DNA from: Harriotta raleighana
Lineage: Eukaryota
Direction: 5' to 3'
Assembly: GCA_050575255.1 (NCBI GenBank)
Contig: JBNZDD010013505.1
Coordinates: 786,972 to 850,971, forward strand
Length of the DNA: 64,000 bases
Of the stretch, positions 20,896-62,674 are shown one piece after another (position 1 is the stretch's first letter; each line of letters starts with the position of its first letter). The notes beneath the pieces were generated by a model. The model was not told where the DNA came from and ran no database searches. It worked only from the letters and a program-made list of their open reading frames with translations. A program made the position numbers and the translations under genes.

Positions 20896-22483
20896 ATATT
20901 GTACAGTTCAGAATAAATTAATCTCTCAAACTGAACCACTTTCCATAGGAACCTTGTTCAAATCACTTAGAATAAGATGGCACCTCAACACAATACCATA
21001 ATAATGAATTGTTGGAAGGAATTTCTTAAATAAAACTTCACACACCGTAGAGAACATTGTAAGGGAGCCGAGAATCAACAGGAATCCTGGTGACCAAGGA
21101 TAGGACAAATTTTAGAAGAATTTCCCTAACTGAACTGTGTACTGCTCTTTTTCACTGATCTAGGTGAATTGGCATATATGTAGGGTTTTCAATGTACTTT
21201 CCTGAGATGATGAAGGTAGTTATTTTATACAGTGCTGGATACTCATCTTCCCACTTCTCTTGTGGGTAACACAAGATTCATATCATTCCCCCACACTAAA
21301 GTGATTGTATTTGTGGACGCTTGAGCTCTTAGTGCAGCAGTAATATCATTTTATGAAGAAGCAACATCAGCAGCACTTTTTGTGAATATCATGTGTGAGC
21401 AACACGCAGGAAGTGATGTCAGTGGTTGCCTGATGATCCTGAAATTGACCATTTTTTTCACATATCAGTATAAGTTGACACCTGAGATATTGGATCAGAT
21501 GTTTGTAATTTAATGGAGTTGTCTTGCATGTCTTGCCGTAGGAGTCCATTTGAACTTCCACGTCTAAATCTAAAGGAATGCAATGGGCTAAGATTCCAGG
21601 TGTTGTACTGTATTATAATTGGGGAAATGCTATTTACTACCAATATTGGCATGATACTACCCATAACTCTAAATGCAATTTCCACCCAAGAGTGAGCAAA
21701 TTAAAGAAACACGGAAAGGAGATGTTTGTTGTAATCATGACCTTCTACCCCTAGAGGTCGTCAGCCAATTTAATGAATGTGTTGGTGACATCTGGTGGCT
21801 TAACCTCAAGATTGCATCGATGTTGACTTGTATTCACAGTGACAATTGTATTATTTTTGTCTTCTGTAACCCTTTCAAGCCTGATCCAGTAAAATTAAAT
21901 GTCAGTAGTTCACTGGAAAGATAAATGATATGCATCCAGGTCACATTGAGGATAACTGTATCGAGCATACAGGTCGTGGAGGCACTGATTGTCAAAGTGG
22001 AGAGGAATTGAGCTATCTTTTTGGGAAGAAATTGATTGATAAAAAGCACAGAGTAATGTAAAATTACACGTATATTTTACTTGGAGCCTGATGGGACAGG
22101 CTTTTGCAATCCTGTATGTTCCTACGTTTCTACATTTGAAAGATTGAGCCATAGGAAAGATCAAACAGGATGTGTNTTCCTATGTTTCTACATTTGAAAG
22201 ATTGAGCCATAGGAAAGATCAAACAGGATGTGTTTCTGAAATTTCAGGGAGTTTTGACAAGCATGAAAACATCTAGGAAAAGCCACTTTCATATAAGGGT
22301 TTCTTTGTAGATGTTCCTTTCAAGTTATACAAATATTTACAGCAAGTGATTGATCAGATAGTTACAAAACAAATGGAAGGATCATAATGTTTGAGTTTGA
22401 GAGCATTTCAAGATATTCACTATCTTCAGTGCAATTCAAGGAGAAATAGATTTCCTGATTTAAGACAACCCAATTAGAACTAT

Positions 22484-24070: not shown

Positions 24071-24922
24071 CAACAACAACAACAACAAAATTACATTTAT
24101 AGAGCGCGTTTCACGTCAGGAGGACGTCCCAAGGCGCTGGACAGATGATTTAAGACCCGAGCAGGGGGAAATGTTCAGGGCGAGGGGGGAGGGGGAGGGT
24201 GGGAGCAAGGAGGAGGTAGAGAGTCGAGAGGGGAGCTGAAGGCACGGTCGAAGAGAAAGGTCTTGAGACCGGCCTTGAAAGAGGAAAGGGAGGGAGCGAG
24301 GCGAAGGCACTGGGGGATGGAGTTCCAGAGCCTGGGGGCTGAGCAGCTGAAAGCCCGGCCGCCAATGGTAGGGCGGTTAGGGCAGGGGATGTGGAGCAGA
24401 CCAGAGCCAGAGGAACGGAGGGTACGGGCAGGTAGATAGGGGGATATTAGGTCGGAGAGGTAGGAGGGAGCAAGGCCGTGAATGGCCTTGTAGGTGAGGA
24501 TGAGGATCTTGAAGTCGATCCTCTGGGGGATGGGGAGCCAGTGGAGACGGGTGAGGGTGGGAGTGATGTGGTCTCGAAGGCTGGTGCGGGAGAGAACACG
24601 AGCTGCAGAGTTCTGGATGACCTGCAGCTTGTGGATGGAGGAGCCGGGAAGGCCCACGAGGAGAGAGTTCCCATAGTCCAGCCTTGAGGTGATGAAGGCG
24701 TGGACCAGTATCTCAGCAACGTGAGGGGTGAGGCAGTGTCGTAGCCTGGCGATGTTCCGGAGGTGGTGGAAGGCAGTGCCAGTTGTGGCGCGGATGTGGG
24801 GGAGAAAGGACAGCTCAGGGTCAAATAGAACACCGAGGTTCCTGACTGGCTTTGCGAGGTGGAGAGTGCAGCCTTGGATGCTGATGCTATCAGCACCCGA
24901 GTTGCGGAGGCGCTGACGCGAG
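24071..24922 (-). mobile_element. Young GC-rich L2 3' fragment (~850 bp, ORF2 C-terminus open)
   Basis: KPVRNLGVLFDPELSF...HAFITSRLDYGNSLL...LHWLPIPQRIDFKIL...KTFLFDRAF; CpGs retained; (CAA)n tail. Confidence 0.95.
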
Positions 24923-30574: not shown

Positions 30575-30958
30575 TTTTCCTTCTCCTCCCTGATTTCCCC
30601 CTTTCCCCCCTTTCTCCCCCCATTTTCCTCCCTGATTGTACTCCACCCCGCCTTTCCCTCTGTCTCTCCCCTTACCCTCTTTTTCCCTTTTCTGCCCCAG
30701 CCCCACTTCCGCGACTGTTTGTGGGACACTGCTGTGCGCAATTTGGATGCCGCGTTTCGCCCACAAATATACAGTAGTTTTTTCCTGTTCTTCTTCCCCC
30801 TACCCCTCCCCTTGCCCACAAATATACAGTCAATTTTTCCTACTTTCCTTCCCCAACCCCTCCCCCCACCGCTGTGATCCCTACTTGACTGTACAGCGCC
30901 TTGGGACATCCTCCTGACGTGAAAAGCGCTATATAAATGTAATTTTGATTGATTGATT
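30575..30958 (+). mobile_element. Chimeric retroelement: L2-type pyrimidine-rich 3'UTR carrying a Deu segment, (GATT)n tail (copy A)
   Basis: Deu segment 30713-30775, partial repeat 30814-30836, then L2 tail cagcgccttgggacatcctcctgacgtgaaaagcgctatataaatgtaattttgattgattgatt. Confidence 0.8.
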
Positions 30959-33474: not shown

Positions 33475-34240
33475 TGGGTCAAAATACCTTTCTATTGTTG
33501 TACCACCTTAGGATATCATAAAGAAATGAAACTTCACAAATGATATATTTTCATTTATTGTCATCAAAAATAACTTCTGTTTAGTTTACATGGCACTTTT
33601 GAGCTTGATGTTGTGTAAAATTAACACCATAAACCTTCTACATCCTCCCGATGTGAAAGGCGCTCTGCTCTACAAATGTAATTTTGTTGCTGTTTTGTTG
33701 TTTGTTATTGTTGTACATCAAGTTCAAGAAGCACTGTTGTCGACAGATTGGTGCTGAAGCCAGCCAGTCAAGGTCATTCTCTCACATTGGTCAAACTCAA
33801 AGCACGAAAACCACTCTGGATAAATGTTATTCACTTAAGATGTAAAAGGATGTCCCCAAATTACGCAGTAATTGCATACTTTCTTATCACTTGAATACAA
33901 ACTCCTTACCCAACATTTCCAGTTAGGTGTACTCTATATATCTATTTATTGTTTACTGATTTACTTATTGAATATGTATCATATTCTTCTGTAGCTACAT
34001 CGGCACCAGTCACAGGCAGTTTTTCTTAGTTCTAAAATCCCTTTGGCTCTGATGCTAATTTGAATAAAAGCTTTGCTCTATTGCCAAGGCCTATACGTTA
34101 TATATTAGTTGATGTAGTACAAACAAAATTGGATTCATTTGCAATGAAAGAGTAAATAATATCTTTGCACTGTTTGACAGTCCCAAAAGGTTGTTAGTTA
34201 TCAACTTTCTTGTTTCTGGGCACTTTTTATTAACACCAAG

Positions 34241-34537
34241 TGGAGCCCTGTAGCTCAGTGGTTAGAGCTCTCGCCTTGAGTGGGTTCAATTCCAGGTAGG
34301 GCGAAATCTTGAGCAAGTTTCCTTACTCCACATGCCTGATAATAATCCCTAACAAAAAACAATAATAAATTGGTCATTGAAATCCACGACTGTTTGTGGG
34401 ACACTGCTATGCGCAATTGGCTGCCACATTTCACCCACATATATACAGTCAATTCACTTTACAGTGTATTCTGTGAGGCGTTTTGAGACATCTAGATGAC
34501 ATGAAAAGCACTATATCAATTGCAAGGATTCCGATTA
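34241..34537 (+). mobile_element. Young SINE, short form
   Basis: tggagccctgtagctcagtggttagag...ggttcaattcc...ctccacatgcctgataataatccct...Deu segment. Confidence 0.92.
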
Positions 34538-35297
34538 CTTTTTTTGACGTGAACAAATTTATGAGCCTTGTCCTGTCTGCTGCTAAGAAGGTGTCATGGC
34601 CCTTCAGGCAAAATCATGAAGAGCTATAACTGTTCATATAGAGTGAATTCAGACAATCTGTTTACATGGTACTCTGGAATTTTAAAAGTCTGAAGGGCAT
34701 TCTTTTTTACACTCCACCAAGAGCAAATTAGGAAGGTTTTAATATATTTTTAAAGACTTACCTACATCTTAGTAAGTACAATTTTTTCAGGAAGATTTCC
34801 TGCTATTCTTGGTCTTCATGAAAATCTTGGGAAGTCCACTCGACATGAAAGGTGCTCTATAATTATAAGGTTGTTGTTGTTAAAACCTGGAGAAGTTACA
34901 GATTAAAACGAGTTGTGTATCAGCAAATGTATTTTTAAAAACAAACTTCCAAATTGCTGATTGAAAGTGCTAAGAGAGAATTTTAAAGAATGTACAAAAT
35001 GTAATCATATATAAATGATAACATTATTAAATACTCTAGTGAAATATATTTTCCGACTTTGCATGGTGAAAGGCTCTTGAGTTTTTAGCTTTTTCGGTGG
35101 TTGGGCAATAATCATGAATCTGAATGTTTGAACTGTTTTTTCACAGCAGTATTTGATTTGTTCTGGTCTGAAATAACATCTTTAGGTAGACCTGCCAATT
35201 CCTTTCTATGTAGGCTTCTAAGAAAGGTTGGTGAAGTTTGATTGTGTAATTTGCATTGTTATTTCAGATTGCTCTTAATCCAGTTTCAGTACATGTA

Positions 35298-40560: not shown

Positions 40561-41962
40561 CTGTATGTATATTTTTTATAAAGGATATAGTCAAGCTCTG
40601 ATTTATTTTTGCTGGGAAAGTGATAAAGTTTAACAATTCTGGGATGACGTTATTAAACAGAATGTCTTAATCTTCGATAGTGATCCATGAAATCTGCTGG
40701 TCATTACTTTCGGAGTCCTTTCCTTGATATAAGGGGCTCTACAACTAAACATTTTATTATGGTCTTAAGGTATCTGAACAGAATATATTGCACTGCACAT
40801 ATGAGACTTTCCAAAAGTTGTGGGCCAGTAATTCAGTTTTATTCCCAGTTCACTATTGAACCACTTCAAAGTCAAAGCGGAACTCTGTTGTTGGTGCCAG
40901 AGATGGTGAAGCACAGATAGGACAGCGGAAGTGAATGTTCCACAGTTTTGGAGATGTAGAATTAAATTACATAAATCCAATAAAAAAAAACATCTCTTTG
41001 TGCAAAGTATTGGAAAAGGAAATGATCGTAAACATAGAAAATATTAAAGTACAGTGAACATGTCTAATTCAGAAAAAAATCATAAGCTCTCTGAATGATT
41101 AGGATTTTTAAATATATTTATTGCCCTTGTTAATGATGTTGAATAAACATTAGGGGCTGGTTGTGGCATCGTTCATCGTTCAATAAATTTCACAACACAA
41201 AATGTGCAGCGATCGAATAACTAAAATATTGATGCTTCAGTATATTTCATTTTAAAAAGATTGAGAAATCTAGCTCCGTGCTTCCAACCCTTTCTCCTGA
41301 TTCACTGATGTTCTGATCTCTTCCCACTAGACATCAGGTCCTGGAATAGCCACAACTGCTTCCGCTCAACATGGAGAAAAAAATAGAAGCTGCCCTACAA
41401 GACTCCCAGCAATGTCTCCTTATGTGTGGCTGATTAGCTCATCCACCCTGGCTGTTCTCACCATCTCATTTAGCCTGTACACTCTCAGAGTATGTAATGT
41501 AATTTTGTTGTTGTTCTTGTTTCTACAAGTTCCAGCTCATTCAAAATGTGCCACATTATTTTGCAGTACCTCCTTTCCACTTGGCTAGCTCTGACTTGTT
41601 AAGTGTCGCTCAACCTCTCTATCCTACTATCATTGACCAAGCCTTCAGTCAATTTGCCCCTGTCCTCCAGAATTTCCTCTCAAAATCTTATTACCTCACC
41701 CCATCTCTAGCTATCATACTTCCTGAAAACCTATTGCTTAGACCATGTTGTACTCACTTCCTTCCTTTTCCTCTTTTCCCACTCTGCTCGGTGTTTGGCA
41801 ATGTGTTGTGAAGTACTTACAAAACTTTATTGTGTTGAATACTATTATATAATTCCAAATTGTGGTTGGTAAATATATCTTGAAATACTACAAATTAAAA
41901 TGCATATTATCAAATACATAAAAAGATATAATTCTTTGGAGACAATGCCAAGATAAAATCTA

Positions 41963-42255
41963 TTCTGTAGTTCAGTGGTTAGAGCACTCGCCCTACAAGC
42001 GAGAGATCTGGGTTCAATTACAGGCAGGATGAAACCTTGGGTAAATTTCTTCACTCCACACACCTCATAATAATCCCTCAAAAAAAATTGGTTATTTCAA
42101 TCCACAACTATTTGTGGGTCACTGCTGTGTGGTGTTGGTTGCCACGATTCGCCCTCATATATCAAGTCAATTCACTTTACAAGTATATCATGTATAGCAC
42201 TTTGAGATGTCTAGATGATGCGAAAAGCGCTACATCAAATGCAAAGATTATTATT
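41963..42255 (+). mobile_element. Young SINE, short form
   Basis: tagttcagtggttagagcactcgcc...ggttcaattac...Deu segment...gattattatt. Confidence 0.88.
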
Positions 42256-42530: not shown

Positions 42531-42790
42531 ATCAATCAATCAAAATTACATTTATACAGCGCTTTCACGCCGGGAGACATCCCAAGGCACTGAACAGTCA
42601 GGTAGGGACCAGAACAGGGGGGCAGAGGTCGGGTTAGGGGAAAGGAGAGTAGGAAAATTGACTGTACATTTGTGGGCAAAACTGTATATTGAAAATTGAC
42701 TGTATATTTGTGGCAGCCAAATTGCACACAACAATGTCCCACAAACAGCCGCGGAAGTGGGGCCAGGGGAGAAAGGCGGAAAAGAGGGTT
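42531..42790 (-). mobile_element. Chimeric L2-3'UTR/Deu element (copy B), inserted in an old DeuSINE
   Basis: atcaatcaatcaaaattacatttatacagcgctttcacgccgggagacatcccaaggc...gactgtatatttgtggcagccaaattgcacac...gcggaagtggggc. Confidence 0.8.
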
Positions 42791-44261: not shown

Positions 44262-44410
44262 CACCCACATATATACAGTCAATTTCTTCCTACTTTCCTT
44301 CCCCTGACCCCTCCCCACCACCGCGCTGATCTCTACTTGACTGTAAAGTGCCTTAGGACGTCCTCCTGACTTGAAAGGCGCTATAAAACTGTAATTTTTT
44401 ATTGATTTTG
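44262..44410 (+). mobile_element. Chimeric L2-3'UTR/Deu element (copy C, 5'-truncated)
   Basis: cacccacatatatacagtcaatttcttcctactttccttcccc...ctacttgactgtaaagtgccttaggacgtcctcctgac...attgatt. Confidence 0.75.
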
Positions 44411-44989: not shown

Positions 44990-45415
44990 TGGTTCTAGAT
45001 CCAAGCCCCACATCAGGACTTTGAAGCTATTGGTCCAGGCTGACATTCCAATGCAGTCAATGAATCATTAAACAGCTCCGGTTCAGGTGAATGTTAAAGA
45101 TATCATCGCACTATTTGAAAAAATAAAGTAGCTTCTACCAGTGTCCTGGNCAAGCCCCACATCAGGACTTTGAAGCTATTGGTCCAAGCTGACATTCCAA
45201 TGCAGTCAATGAATCATTAAACAGCTCCGGTTCAGGTGAATGTTAAACATATCATCGCACTATTTGAAAAAATAAAGTAGCTTCTACCAGTGTCCTGGCC
45301 AACAATGCTCCACATAAAATTGATCATTCGCTTGTTGGCTGTTTGTGGGATCTTTCTGTGTGCAAATTGGCTGCTAGTTGACCTAGACAGTTACAGTCAT
45401 TGTACTTCACAGTTT
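44990..45415 (+). mobile_element. Old DeuSINE (contains an assembly duplication around N at 45150)
   Basis: ggctgacattccaatgcag...caggtgaatgttaaagatatc...tgtgggatctttctgtgtgcaaattggctgc. Confidence 0.75.
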
Positions 45416-62242: not shown

Positions 62243-62674
62243 ACAACAACAACAACAACAACAAAATTACACTTGTATAGTGCCTTTCACATCAGGAGGA
62301 CGTCCCAAAGCGCTGAACAGGCAGGTTGGGACCCGAGCATGGGTGGGGATCGGGGATAGGGGGAGTGGGAAGGAGAGTGGGAAGAGTTAGGGTGGGGAGG
62401 AGCCGAAGGCGCGGTCAAAGAGGAAGGTCTTGAGACCAGCCTTGAAGGAGGAAAGGGACGCAGCAAGGCGGAGGGACTGCGGGATGGAGTTCCAAAGTGT
62501 GGGGGTAGAGAGGCTGAAAGCCCGGCCACCGATGGTTGGGTGGTTAGGGTGGTGGACGCGGGGCAGGCCTGAGTCTGCTGAACGAAGGGTGCGGCCAGGT
62601 TGATAGGGAGATAGCAGGTCAGAGAGATAGGCAGGGCAAGGCCATGAATGACCTTGAAGGTGAGGACGAGGATC
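62243..62674 (-). mobile_element. Young L2 3' fragment
   Basis: (CAA)n tail; ILVLTFKVIHGLAPAYLSDLLSPYQPGRTLRS...GGRAFSLSTPTLWNSIP. Confidence 0.92.

What the first reader, a model, noticed from the sequence alone, without database searches (positions are those of the whole stretch)
30575..30958. Multi-copy chimeric retroelement: a SINE Deu segment inside an L2 3'UTR, with its own (GATT)n tail
Seen: three dispersed copies (30575-30958 +, 42531-42790 -, 44262-44410 +) share the same junctions. All three have Deu 'cccacaaatatacagtcaattt' (or a near variant) joined to 'tcctact(t/c)tccttcccc...' L2-type 3'UTR and the terminal stem-loop. Copies A and B also share the upstream junction 'ccccacttccgcg|(a/g)ctgtttgtgggaca' and a duplicated ccacaaatatacagt. 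A and B end in (GATT)n and C in a degenerate version, whereas other L2s here end in (GTT)n and SINEs in (ATT)n. Established: SINEs usually acquire LINE 3' tails. Inference: shared junctions mean the chimera itself retrotransposed, either as an L2 subfamily that captured SINE sequence (the reverse direction) or as a new non-autonomous family. I cannot tell whether it is already catalogued.
Basis: partly seen in the sequence, partly recalled or inferred. Interest (0 to 1): 0.72.

Follow-up and report, generated by a model that had tools for sequence, protein, structure and literature searches.

The report
Histone-carrying jumping element with L2 tail
These three snippets are the cut-off ends of a very abundant jumping element in a chimaera-type fish genome, built from a histone gene fused to a piece of a second host gene and likely copied by a LINE-2 enzyme, whose histone part has piled up one-way A-to-G changes that likely record RNA editing written back into DNA.

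Summary
Real, and stranger than reported. The shared junction occurs 4,031 times exactly in the genome (reversed control 0; about 14,000 copies after calibration). Full-length copies (about 0.95-1.4 kb, roughly 470 reaching the histone part) have no Pol III head and no L2 ORF2. They read: GC-rich head, histone H2B-variant coding sequence, RUNDC1 N-terminal coding piece, TTG repeat, pyrimidine tract, one to four copies of a 70-nt SINE 3' segment, L2 3' end, (GATT)n. The H2B parent is a holocephalan variant that is intact in Callorhinchus milii; only a broken copy was found here. Copies form a ladder from near-intact H2B to frameshifted young forms. Along that lineage 19 of 50 A became G against 2 of 37 T to C (p=3e-4), favouring a 5' A/T neighbour, while post-insertion changes are symmetric: likely ADAR editing fixed by reverse transcription (inferred). 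The 5' end matches a YY1/TISU motif, a likely internal Pol II promoter (untested). 'An L2 that captured SINE' is not supported, and the 'Deu' label is unverified. The scan noted H2B-carrying L2-tailed elements with editing traces in another chimaera genome; no paper was found; Dfam/Repbase could not be checked.

The parts
30575..30958 (+). Copy A: 5'-truncated member of the family, two-segment subtype with an ~85-nt internal deletion
   Evidence: aligns colinearly at 79-93% to the 3' 470 nt of full-length copies L007, L041, L054, L038
30575..30707 (+). Pyrimidine-rich tract of the element; its last ~17 nt resemble the start of an L2 3'UTR (by eye)
   Evidence: 85-89% to full-length copies; L2 3'UTR seen
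30708..30775 (+).
   Evidence: family consensus equals the SINE consensus but for one inserted T (114 and 7 element segments against 80 SINE segments)
30776..30835 (+). Spacer (duplicate of the L2-type start) and remnant of the second SINE segment
   Evidence: pairwise alignments to L054 and L007
30836..30946 (+). L2-type 3'UTR with predicted terminal stem-loop (30895-30930)
   Evidence: 75% over 122 columns to the window L2 at 62262-62383 and 93% over the last 59 nt to the L2 at 24086-24144; consensus fold
30947..30958 (+). (GATT)n tail
   Evidence: sequence; tail survey
42531..42789 (-). Copy B: 5'-truncated member, one SINE segment with local slippage duplications, L2 3' end, (GATT)n
44262..44410 (+). 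Copy C: truncated inside the SINE segment; junction, L2 3' end, degenerate tail
   Evidence: 89% to L007 over 144 columns
62246..62674 (-). Reference, not part of the family: true L2 3' end (ORF2 end, 3'UTR, (GTT)n), type of the likely partner LINE
34240..34548 (+). Reference, not part of the family: tRNA-headed SINE carrying the donor segment

Best explanation
The three copies are 5'-truncated members of an abundant non-autonomous retroposon made of a histone H2B-variant coding sequence fused to a RUNDC1 coding piece, a pyrimidine tract, a SINE 3' segment and an L2 3' end, which is likely transcribed by RNA polymerase II from a YY1/TISU-like motif at its own 5' end and likely copied in trans by L2 reverse transcriptase. 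Shown: the anatomy, the two host donors, the copy number, the common 5' end, the ladder of subfamilies, the tail variants and the A-to-G excess. Inferred: (1) assembly by successive template switches or splicing between L2, SINE and host RNAs, RUNDC1 first and H2B last; (2) L2 recognises the 3' stem-loop and repeat, which lets an mRNA-derived RNA pass the stringent 3'-end recognition of this LINE type; (3) daughter copies become new sources because the promoter travels inside the element; (4) ADAR edits the RNA in the H2B part and reverse transcription fixes inosine as G, so the source lineage drifts one way from A to G. The coding pieces are passengers: the protein constraint is lost.
For: H2B: copy L093 scores PF00125 48.2 bits (cut-off 26.4), matches solved H2B chains at E 4e-33 and is 70/83 identical to C. 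milii 'late histone H2B.L4-like' P0139. RUNDC1: best hits of copy L171 are chondrichthyan RUNDC1 at 86-92% (487 hits among 520 candidates); 48/59 identical to C. milii RUNDC1; host gene on C13201, its first ~130 codons not found, with an N gap upstream. Linkage: 25 of 30 loci found by the 5' part carry junction plus L2 tail downstream, 29 of 30 the SINE segment. Numbers: 4,031 exact 3' junctions, sensitivity 13 of 45; 257 exact H2B|RUNDC1 junctions, control 0, sensitivity 37 of 68. 5' end: in 27 head-bearing copies conservation starts 3-4 nt before the ATGG core (A at -3 in 20, at -2 in 21) and no two share the upstream flank; the head aligns with the Gly-rich N-tail of the broken single-copy variant L195; it fits the TISU/YY1 motif of PMC2518114 (passages). 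No tRNA at any element head in 30 loci, no Rfam family in the element in 5 loci. Ladder: tree of 72 H2B cores runs host H2B, old, mid, young. A>G: 19 of 50 A vs 2 of 37 T>C, p=3.4e-4; 22 of 55 vs 3 of 40 when polarised by P0139, two of the 22 probably CpG artefacts; 5' neighbour A/T in 10 of 19 changed vs 2 of 26 unchanged, p=0.0014; private changes symmetric (A>G 0.020-0.031, T>C 0.028-0.030); mid-to-young step 9 of 43 A changed while private A>G differs by about 0.01. Several tail lineages with the same 5' part (GATT, GTT, SINE-type ATT) point to more than one source.
Against: No expression, promoter or retrotransposition data. Target-site duplications are not general: 16 full-length copies, mean flank match 4.0 vs 3.4 nt in mismatched pairs, one clear 7-nt case. 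No GATT-tailed autonomous L2 was seen among 34 ORF2-linked ends, so the partner is inferred from homology only. Individual copies show no A>G excess, so editing per cycle must be rare; no 3' G preference (6 of 19 vs 9 of 26); the changed sites give no more folding stability than random A sets, so the double-stranded substrate is unidentified. The A>G excess is absent from the SINE segment and weak in the retained RUNDC1 piece (2 changes). The 'old' group is 6 copies of which 3 share upstream flanks, and groups were chosen by similarity searches, which can sharpen a ladder. The DNA of an intact parent H2B was not in hand. The family membership of most truncated copies rests on the 3' part alone.
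Confidence: 0.8

Rival explanations
1. Same anatomy, but all copies come from one long-lived germline-transcribed chimeric pseudogene with an external promoter; the A-to-G drift is transcription-associated mutation at that DNA locus, and the copies are dead on arrival (the reading given for platypus snoRTE).
For: Ladder-like tree fits one source changing through time; private changes in copies are symmetric; the source kept its CpGs, as an unmethylated locus would. Transcription-associated A>G excess on the coding strand is known (recalled).
Against: A>G is about four- to sevenfold over T>C per site and roughly twentyfold over the neutral A>G gain between mid and young copies, far above the 1.5-2-fold asymmetry I recall for mammals; the excess is confined to the H2B part; several structural lineages share the head; no two copies share an upstream flank.
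Confidence: 0.25
2. The A-to-G drift comes from biased misincorporation by the L2 reverse transcriptase, or from selection for a G-rich RNA or promoter, not from ADAR.
For: Any RNA-to-DNA cycle gives strand asymmetry; no double-stranded substrate identified and no 3' G preference.
Against: An enzyme bias should also hit the A-rich SINE segment, which is unchanged; observed changes stabilise the fold no more than random ones (fraction of random sets at least as stable 0.54, 0.50, 0.20); the 5' A/T preference fits the ADAR neighbour rule (rule recalled; p=0.0014).
Confidence: 0.3
3. One reading: an autonomous L2 subfamily took a SINE segment into its 3'UTR, and the H2B-RUNDC1 form is a side branch.
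For: The SINE segment sits between short L2-like sequences with a repeated TTCC(C/T)AC (by eye), so an L2 with an inserted segment may have been the ancestor of the 3' module; 1 of 40 junction loci has an ORF2 end joined upstream.
Against: 4 of 40 junction loci extend into RUNDC1 or H2B against 1 into ORF2; 28 of 34 ORF2-linked ends have the plain 3'UTR and GTT.
Confidence: 0.07
4. Independent nested SINE insertions into L2 tails, or assembly artefact.
For: Some fetched loci are duplicates of each other (L002/L020, L010/L024, L029/L030).
Against: One junction 4,031 times on both strands (2,021 and 2,010), control 0; unrelated flanks; graded divergence.
Confidence: 0.01

Closest known systems
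SVA_F1 (MAST2 exon 1) and the chimpanzee STK40-SVA subfamily (PMC6139936, abstract and outline seen)
   Same: Non-autonomous composite retroposon with captured host-gene sequence at the 5' end, repeat-rich middle, mobilised in trans
   Different: Partner is L2 through a homologous 3' end, not L1 through poly(A); the captured pieces are coding sequence of two genes and form the whole 5' half; about 14,000 copies against 94 for the STK40 subfamily; joins not shown to be splices
Platypus snoRTE/PlatSINE1, crocodilian SINEU, MeloSINE (PMC3747384 and PMC7245038, passages)
   Same: Cellular RNA piece fused to a LINE 3' end, uniform chimeric structure, no tRNA head
   Different: Those heads come from non-coding RNAs; here the head comes from protein-coding mRNA, and the subfamily ladder suggests repeated rounds, which PMC3747384 denies for the snoRNA element
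CmiSINEs (SINE2-1_CM, SINE2-1B_CM) and SacSINE1-CM of Callorhinchus milii with partner L2-2_CM (PMC5499810, parts 1-2 of 6 read)
   Same: Same kind of genome; SINEs of the window that fit this description are the donors of the 70-nt segment; L2 partner; module exchange at the 3' end
   Different: No tRNA head, no CORE body, about four times longer; the tail is closer to the window's GTT-tailed L2s than to the SINE tail; not described in the parts read
Processed pseudogenes / retrocopies (PMC5470649, passages)
   Same: mRNA-derived, coding constraint lost, dispersed
   Different: No poly(A); fixed chimeric structure with a LINE tail; one family holds about as many H2B-bearing copies as the whole retrocopy counts listed for non-mammalian vertebrates (coelacanth 472, zebrafish 195-652)
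ORF1-only non-autonomous LINEs (HAL1, HeT-A; recalled, and named in note e1-9387429)
   Same: Coding-like 5' half, long 3' part, no reverse transcriptase
   Different: The coding remnant is host H2B and RUNDC1, not ORF1

Membership tests
SINE (SINE1/2/3) | Small-RNA-derived head with Pol III A and B boxes | tested here: not met
   No tRNA at the head in 30 loci, no Rfam hit inside the element in 5 loci; head aligns with the H2B-variant N-tail
SINE (SINE1/2/3) | 3' end homologous to a partner LINE, ending in a simple repeat | tested here: met
   75% over 122 columns and 93% over 59 nt to window L2s; GATT/GTT/ATT tails
SINE (SINE1/2/3) | No protein-coding-derived body | tested here: not met
   H2B and RUNDC1 coding pieces
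DeuSINE | Central Deu domain | tested here: inconclusive
   The segment lies in the ~160-nt 3' region that PMC5499810 describes as shared by CORE-type and Deu-type SINEs, downstream of the core seen in the window's SacSINE1-type copies (core recognised from memory); no Deu reference sequence was available (not held)
L2 LINE (autonomous) | ORF2 with endonuclease and reverse transcriptase upstream of the 3'UTR | tested here: not met
   Full-length copies are 0.93-1.37 kb from head to tail (16 copies); ORF2 end joined upstream in 1 of 40 junction loci
L2 LINE (autonomous) | 3' stem-loop and terminal short repeats | tested here: met
   Consensus two-stem fold shared with window L2s, weak covariation; repeats
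Processed pseudogene (L1 type) | Poly(A) tail and target-site duplication | tested here: not met
   Microsatellite tails; one clear duplication in 16 copies
SVA-like gene-capturing composite retroposon | Captured host-gene sequence fixed at the 5' end of a multi-copy non-autonomous element | tested here: met
   257 exact H2B|RUNDC1 junctions, control 0; 25 of 30 linked to the tail
SVA-like gene-capturing composite retroposon | SVA homology (hexamer, Alu-like, VNTR, SINE-R), poly(A), L1 mobilisation | tested here: not met
   Every module traces to H2B, RUNDC1, a local SINE or L2, apart from the low-complexity tract; no poly(A). It works like SVA_F1 but is not an SVA
SVA-like gene-capturing composite retroposon | RNA polymerase II transcription | not testable with these tools
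   Inferred from the lack of a Pol III head, internal T-runs and the TISU/YY1-like 5' motif
ORF1-only non-autonomous LINE (HAL1 type) | Retains the LINE's ORF1 | tested here: not met
   Coding remnants are H2B and RUNDC1
Catalogued Dfam/Repbase family | Match to an existing consensus | not testable with these tools
   No repeat library is on hand

The most novel reading that the evidence does not exclude
A self-renewing retroposon whose promoter arose from a histone's N-tail coding sequence, which hijacks L2 by its 3' end, and whose source lineage has been rewritten stepwise by ADAR editing fixed through reverse transcription: a heritable, datable record of A-to-I editing driving directional evolution of a mobile element, with the unchanged SINE segment marking a constrained module needed for mobility.
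Probability: 0.4. Interest if true: 0.88.

Novelty: new variant of a known kind. Interest (0 to 1): 0.74.

Why it matters
LINEs of the L2/CR1 type are thought to copy almost only RNAs that carry their own 3' end, which is the usual explanation for the scarcity of retrocopies outside therian mammals (PMC5470649, PMC3747384, passages). This family shows the way round: one mRNA chimera with a borrowed L2 end reached about 14,000 copies and seeded several hundred histone-like pseudogenes that confuse H2B annotation (about 140 of the 150 scored matches of an H2B search lay outside the host H2B genes). It is an independent parallel to SVA_F1 with another LINE. The subfamily ladder with a known parent makes two open questions testable: whether RNA editing can be fixed in the germline through retrotransposition, and why conserved SINE body segments persist, since here the segment stayed unchanged in an element with no Pol III head while the neighbouring H2B part drifted by about a fifth.

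Tried and rejected
Pol III head: none. L2 ORF1/ORF2 as the 5' part: rejected; Pfam found no family at E below 0.2 in three frames of the frameshifted young copy L007, which is why the H2B origin only shows in older copies or across frameshifts. Intact parent H2B variant in this assembly: not found by three searches; histone clusters here contain N gaps, so absence is not shown. RUNDC1 exon 1: not found, N gap at the expected place. Intron-bearing H2B (L098) as parent: rejected, 70% DNA identity and farther than the C. milii variant. Target-site duplications: no general signal. Structure as the cause of the A>G changes: no support. Shared duplication in A and B as one event: rejected. Splicing as the H2B|RUNDC1 join: a GT follows the breakpoint in L195, but the RUNDC1 side has no pyrimidine tract; left open. 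Sequencing runs: no RNA holder listed, no evidence either way; no reads were laid, so presence in other samples is untested. Literature: ten searches of the open library; those aimed at this element and at lineage-level A-to-G editing (77) returned no paper describing it; subscription journals, Repbase Reports and supplements were not seen. The original DeuSINE paper was not held.

Full report
Observation. A search of the genome with the 3' 269 nt gave 3,189 first-look candidates, of which 40 were scored and 30 fetched; 29 of the 30 end in a GATT-type tail, with three pairs being duplicates of each other. A 19-base pattern across the SINE|L2 junction has 4,031 exact matches (2,021 forward, 2,010 reverse; reversed control 0). 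The pattern catches 13 of 45 copies found independently through their 5' part, which suggests about 14,000 copies; the calibration set is small and made of long copies. Tail classes: junction-bearing ends GATT 75, GTT 10, ATT 4, other 7 of 96; ends with L2 ORF2 upstream GTT 28, GATT 1 (a misclassified family copy), other 5 of 34. The duplicated motif in A is the remnant of a ~145-nt tandem duplication typical of the family, in B a local slippage. The SINE segment occurs in both kinds of window SINE, 3' of the part I recognise from memory as the Deu core; PMC5499810 (parts 1-2 of 6 read) describes such a ~160-nt 3' region shared by the CORE-type CmiSINEs and the Deu-type SacSINE1-CM. The label 'Deu' is therefore unverified.

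What lies 5'. Long copies run upstream through a pyrimidine tract and a TTG repeat into a GC-rich ~500-nt region. Searching with that region gave 1,436 candidates, 40 scored, 30 fetched; 25 of 30 have the junction and L2 tail downstream, 29 of 30 the SINE segment in one to four copies. Their consensus reads across two frameshifts as a histone H2B fold. A genome scan with PF00125 returned host histone genes and older copies of the element. Old copy L093 scores 48.2 bits on PF00125, hits H2B chains at E 4e-33 and is 84% identical to a C. milii variant annotated 'late histone H2B.L4-like', against 72% to canonical H2B of this genome. A broken single-copy version of that variant with its whole N-tail lies on C13655 (L195); no intact one was found. 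Directly after the H2B piece, old copies hold an in-frame-readable stretch whose best hits are chondrichthyan RUNDC1 (86-92%; 48 of 59 identical to C. milii RUNDC1; the old consensus reads about 76 codons without a stop). The host RUNDC1 gene is on C13201, with its first ~130 codons unfound and an N gap upstream. The closeness to C. milii proteins places the genome among holocephalans (inference). The H2B|RUNDC1 junction has 257 exact matches, control 0, sensitivity 37 of 68, so about 470 copies reach it. Of 40 junction loci taken in list order, 4 reach RUNDC1, 2 of them H2B, 1 is joined to an L2 ORF2 end, and the others are truncated. No 5' part lies in the window.

The 5' end. In 27 head-bearing copies, conservation begins 3-4 nt before an ATGG core and no two share the upstream flank. 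The head aligns with the Gly-rich N-tail codons of L195, so it is H2B-derived. It fits TISU, a YY1-bound element just downstream of transcription starts (PMC2518114, passages); that L1 uses YY1 in a like position is recalled. No tRNA or other Rfam family sits at the head. Full-length copies measure 927-1,371 nt in 16 cases; target-site duplications are not general (mean 4.0 against 3.4 nt; one clear 7-nt case), which I recall is usual for L2.

History. A tree of 72 H2B cores rooted on a host gene is ladder-like: host H2B, old, mid, young. Old copies keep the long RUNDC1 piece and end in GTT or in a SINE-type ATT tail; mid and young copies have lost ~110 nt of it and mostly end in GATT; a SINE-tailed lineage spans mid-type and younger-type 5' parts. 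A duplicated pair on C13349 has the RUNDC1 N-terminus and TTG repeat without H2B, a possible pre-fusion stage. Mean non-CpG divergence from the group consensus is 8.4% (24 mid copies) and 5.2% (29 young copies). Groups were picked by similarity searches, and three of the six old copies share flanks.

The A-to-G drift. At columns where old copies and host H2B agree, the young consensus shows A>G at 19 of 50 A and T>C at 2 of 37 T (p=3.4e-4); polarised by the C. milii protein, 22 of 55 against 3 of 40, two of the 22 probably CpG artefacts and five codons misaligned by an indel. Private changes in the copies are symmetric. Changed A have a 5' A or T in 10 of 19 cases against 2 of 26 unchanged (p=0.0014), in line with the ADAR neighbour rule as I recall it; there is no 3' G preference. 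From mid to young 9 of 43 A changed, while private A>G differs by about 1% between the groups: roughly twentyfold over neutral, if that difference measures elapsed time. The SINE segment equals the SINE consensus but for one T and the retained RUNDC1 piece has 2 A>G, which argues against a uniform enzyme bias unless those parts are under selection. The changed sites add no more folding stability than random A sets. My reading is ADAR editing fixed by reverse transcription over serial source replacement (about 0.45), against enzyme bias or selection (0.3) and mutation at one transcribed locus (0.25).

Mechanism. Shown: anatomy, donors, number, common 5' end, ladder, tail variants, asymmetry. 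From established knowledge: LINEs of this type need their own 3' end on the template (PMC3747384, passages; PMC5470649, passages), and SINE modules are exchanged by recombination or template switching (PMC5499810; PMC7245038, passages). Inferred: L2 as partner, Pol II transcription from the internal motif, order of assembly, ADAR.

Comparison and novelty. It works like SVA_F1 and the STK40-SVA subfamily (PMC6139936, abstract and outline) and like snoRTE or SINEU, but belongs to none: no SVA modules, no poly(A), no small-RNA head, no ORF1 or ORF2. Searches found no paper on it; Dfam, Repbase, subscription journals and supplements were not seen, and a chondrichthyan repeat library could hold it unnamed. 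The scan's notes hold an L2-tailed chimera 'with the end of an unknown protein gene' in this genome and two H2B-carrying L2-tailed elements with UQCC2 and editing traces in another chimaera genome; sequence look-ups with L032 and with copy A returned nothing. I saw the latter two only after my own H2B, RUNDC1 and A>G results and did not test them. Verdict: real; new variant of a known kind; interest 0.74.

Noticed in passing
L195 1330-1804 (G000:C13655:141329-141803 +): Broken single-copy version of the holocephalan H2B variant with its whole N-tail and a pyrimidine-rich 3' region; a truncated young family copy lies ~300 nt downstream. Candidate dead parent: the variant is intact in C. milii but no intact copy was found in this assembly.
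   Followed up: partly
L098 1957-2190 - (G000:C13502): H2B-like gene with an acceptor-like site before the VHPD codons, as I recall for the oocyte variant H2B.K; it carries a stop and a frameshift, so it looks pseudogenised.
   Followed up: no
L075 and L077 (G000:C13217:60711-61079 and 69293-69580, -), L196 (C13689): A second H2B variant in two copies, one with a deletion, plus a dispersed decayed copy; sister to the element's H2B in the tree.
   Followed up: partly
L191 1939-2218 and 4925-5208 (G000:C13349): Duplicated pair with RUNDC1 N-terminal coding sequence and TTG repeat but no H2B, cut off by what looks like a CR1 end; possible pre-fusion stage of the family.
   Followed up: partly
L139, L142, L147, L149, L155: Five old copies share several hundred bases of upstream flank, with an inverted L2 3' end just before the head: one insertion spread by segmental duplication or inside a larger repeat.
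   Followed up: no
L116, L199, L202, L232, L234, L249, L257: Sub-lineage with a duplicated L2-type stretch and a SINE-type tail ending in (ATT)n: tail exchange within the family.
   Followed up: partly
L247: An L2 body joined just before its stem-loop to the family's 3' module: single L2-element recombinant or nested insertion.
   Followed up: no
L093 1720-1830 -: A second head-like GC-rich motif, preceded by an inverted copy of the motif core, sits inside this old copy at the end of the RUNDC1 piece.
   Followed up: no
window 45001-45302 and 22119-22236: Near-perfect two-copy tandem duplications (149 nt at 97%, 58 nt at 96%); like duplications next to single N bases in many loci suggest assembly artefacts.
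   Followed up: no
window 2416-2487 - and 41961-42032 +: ARAGORN tRNA calls; the second is the head of a tRNA-derived SINE and the first probably is too.
   Followed up: partly
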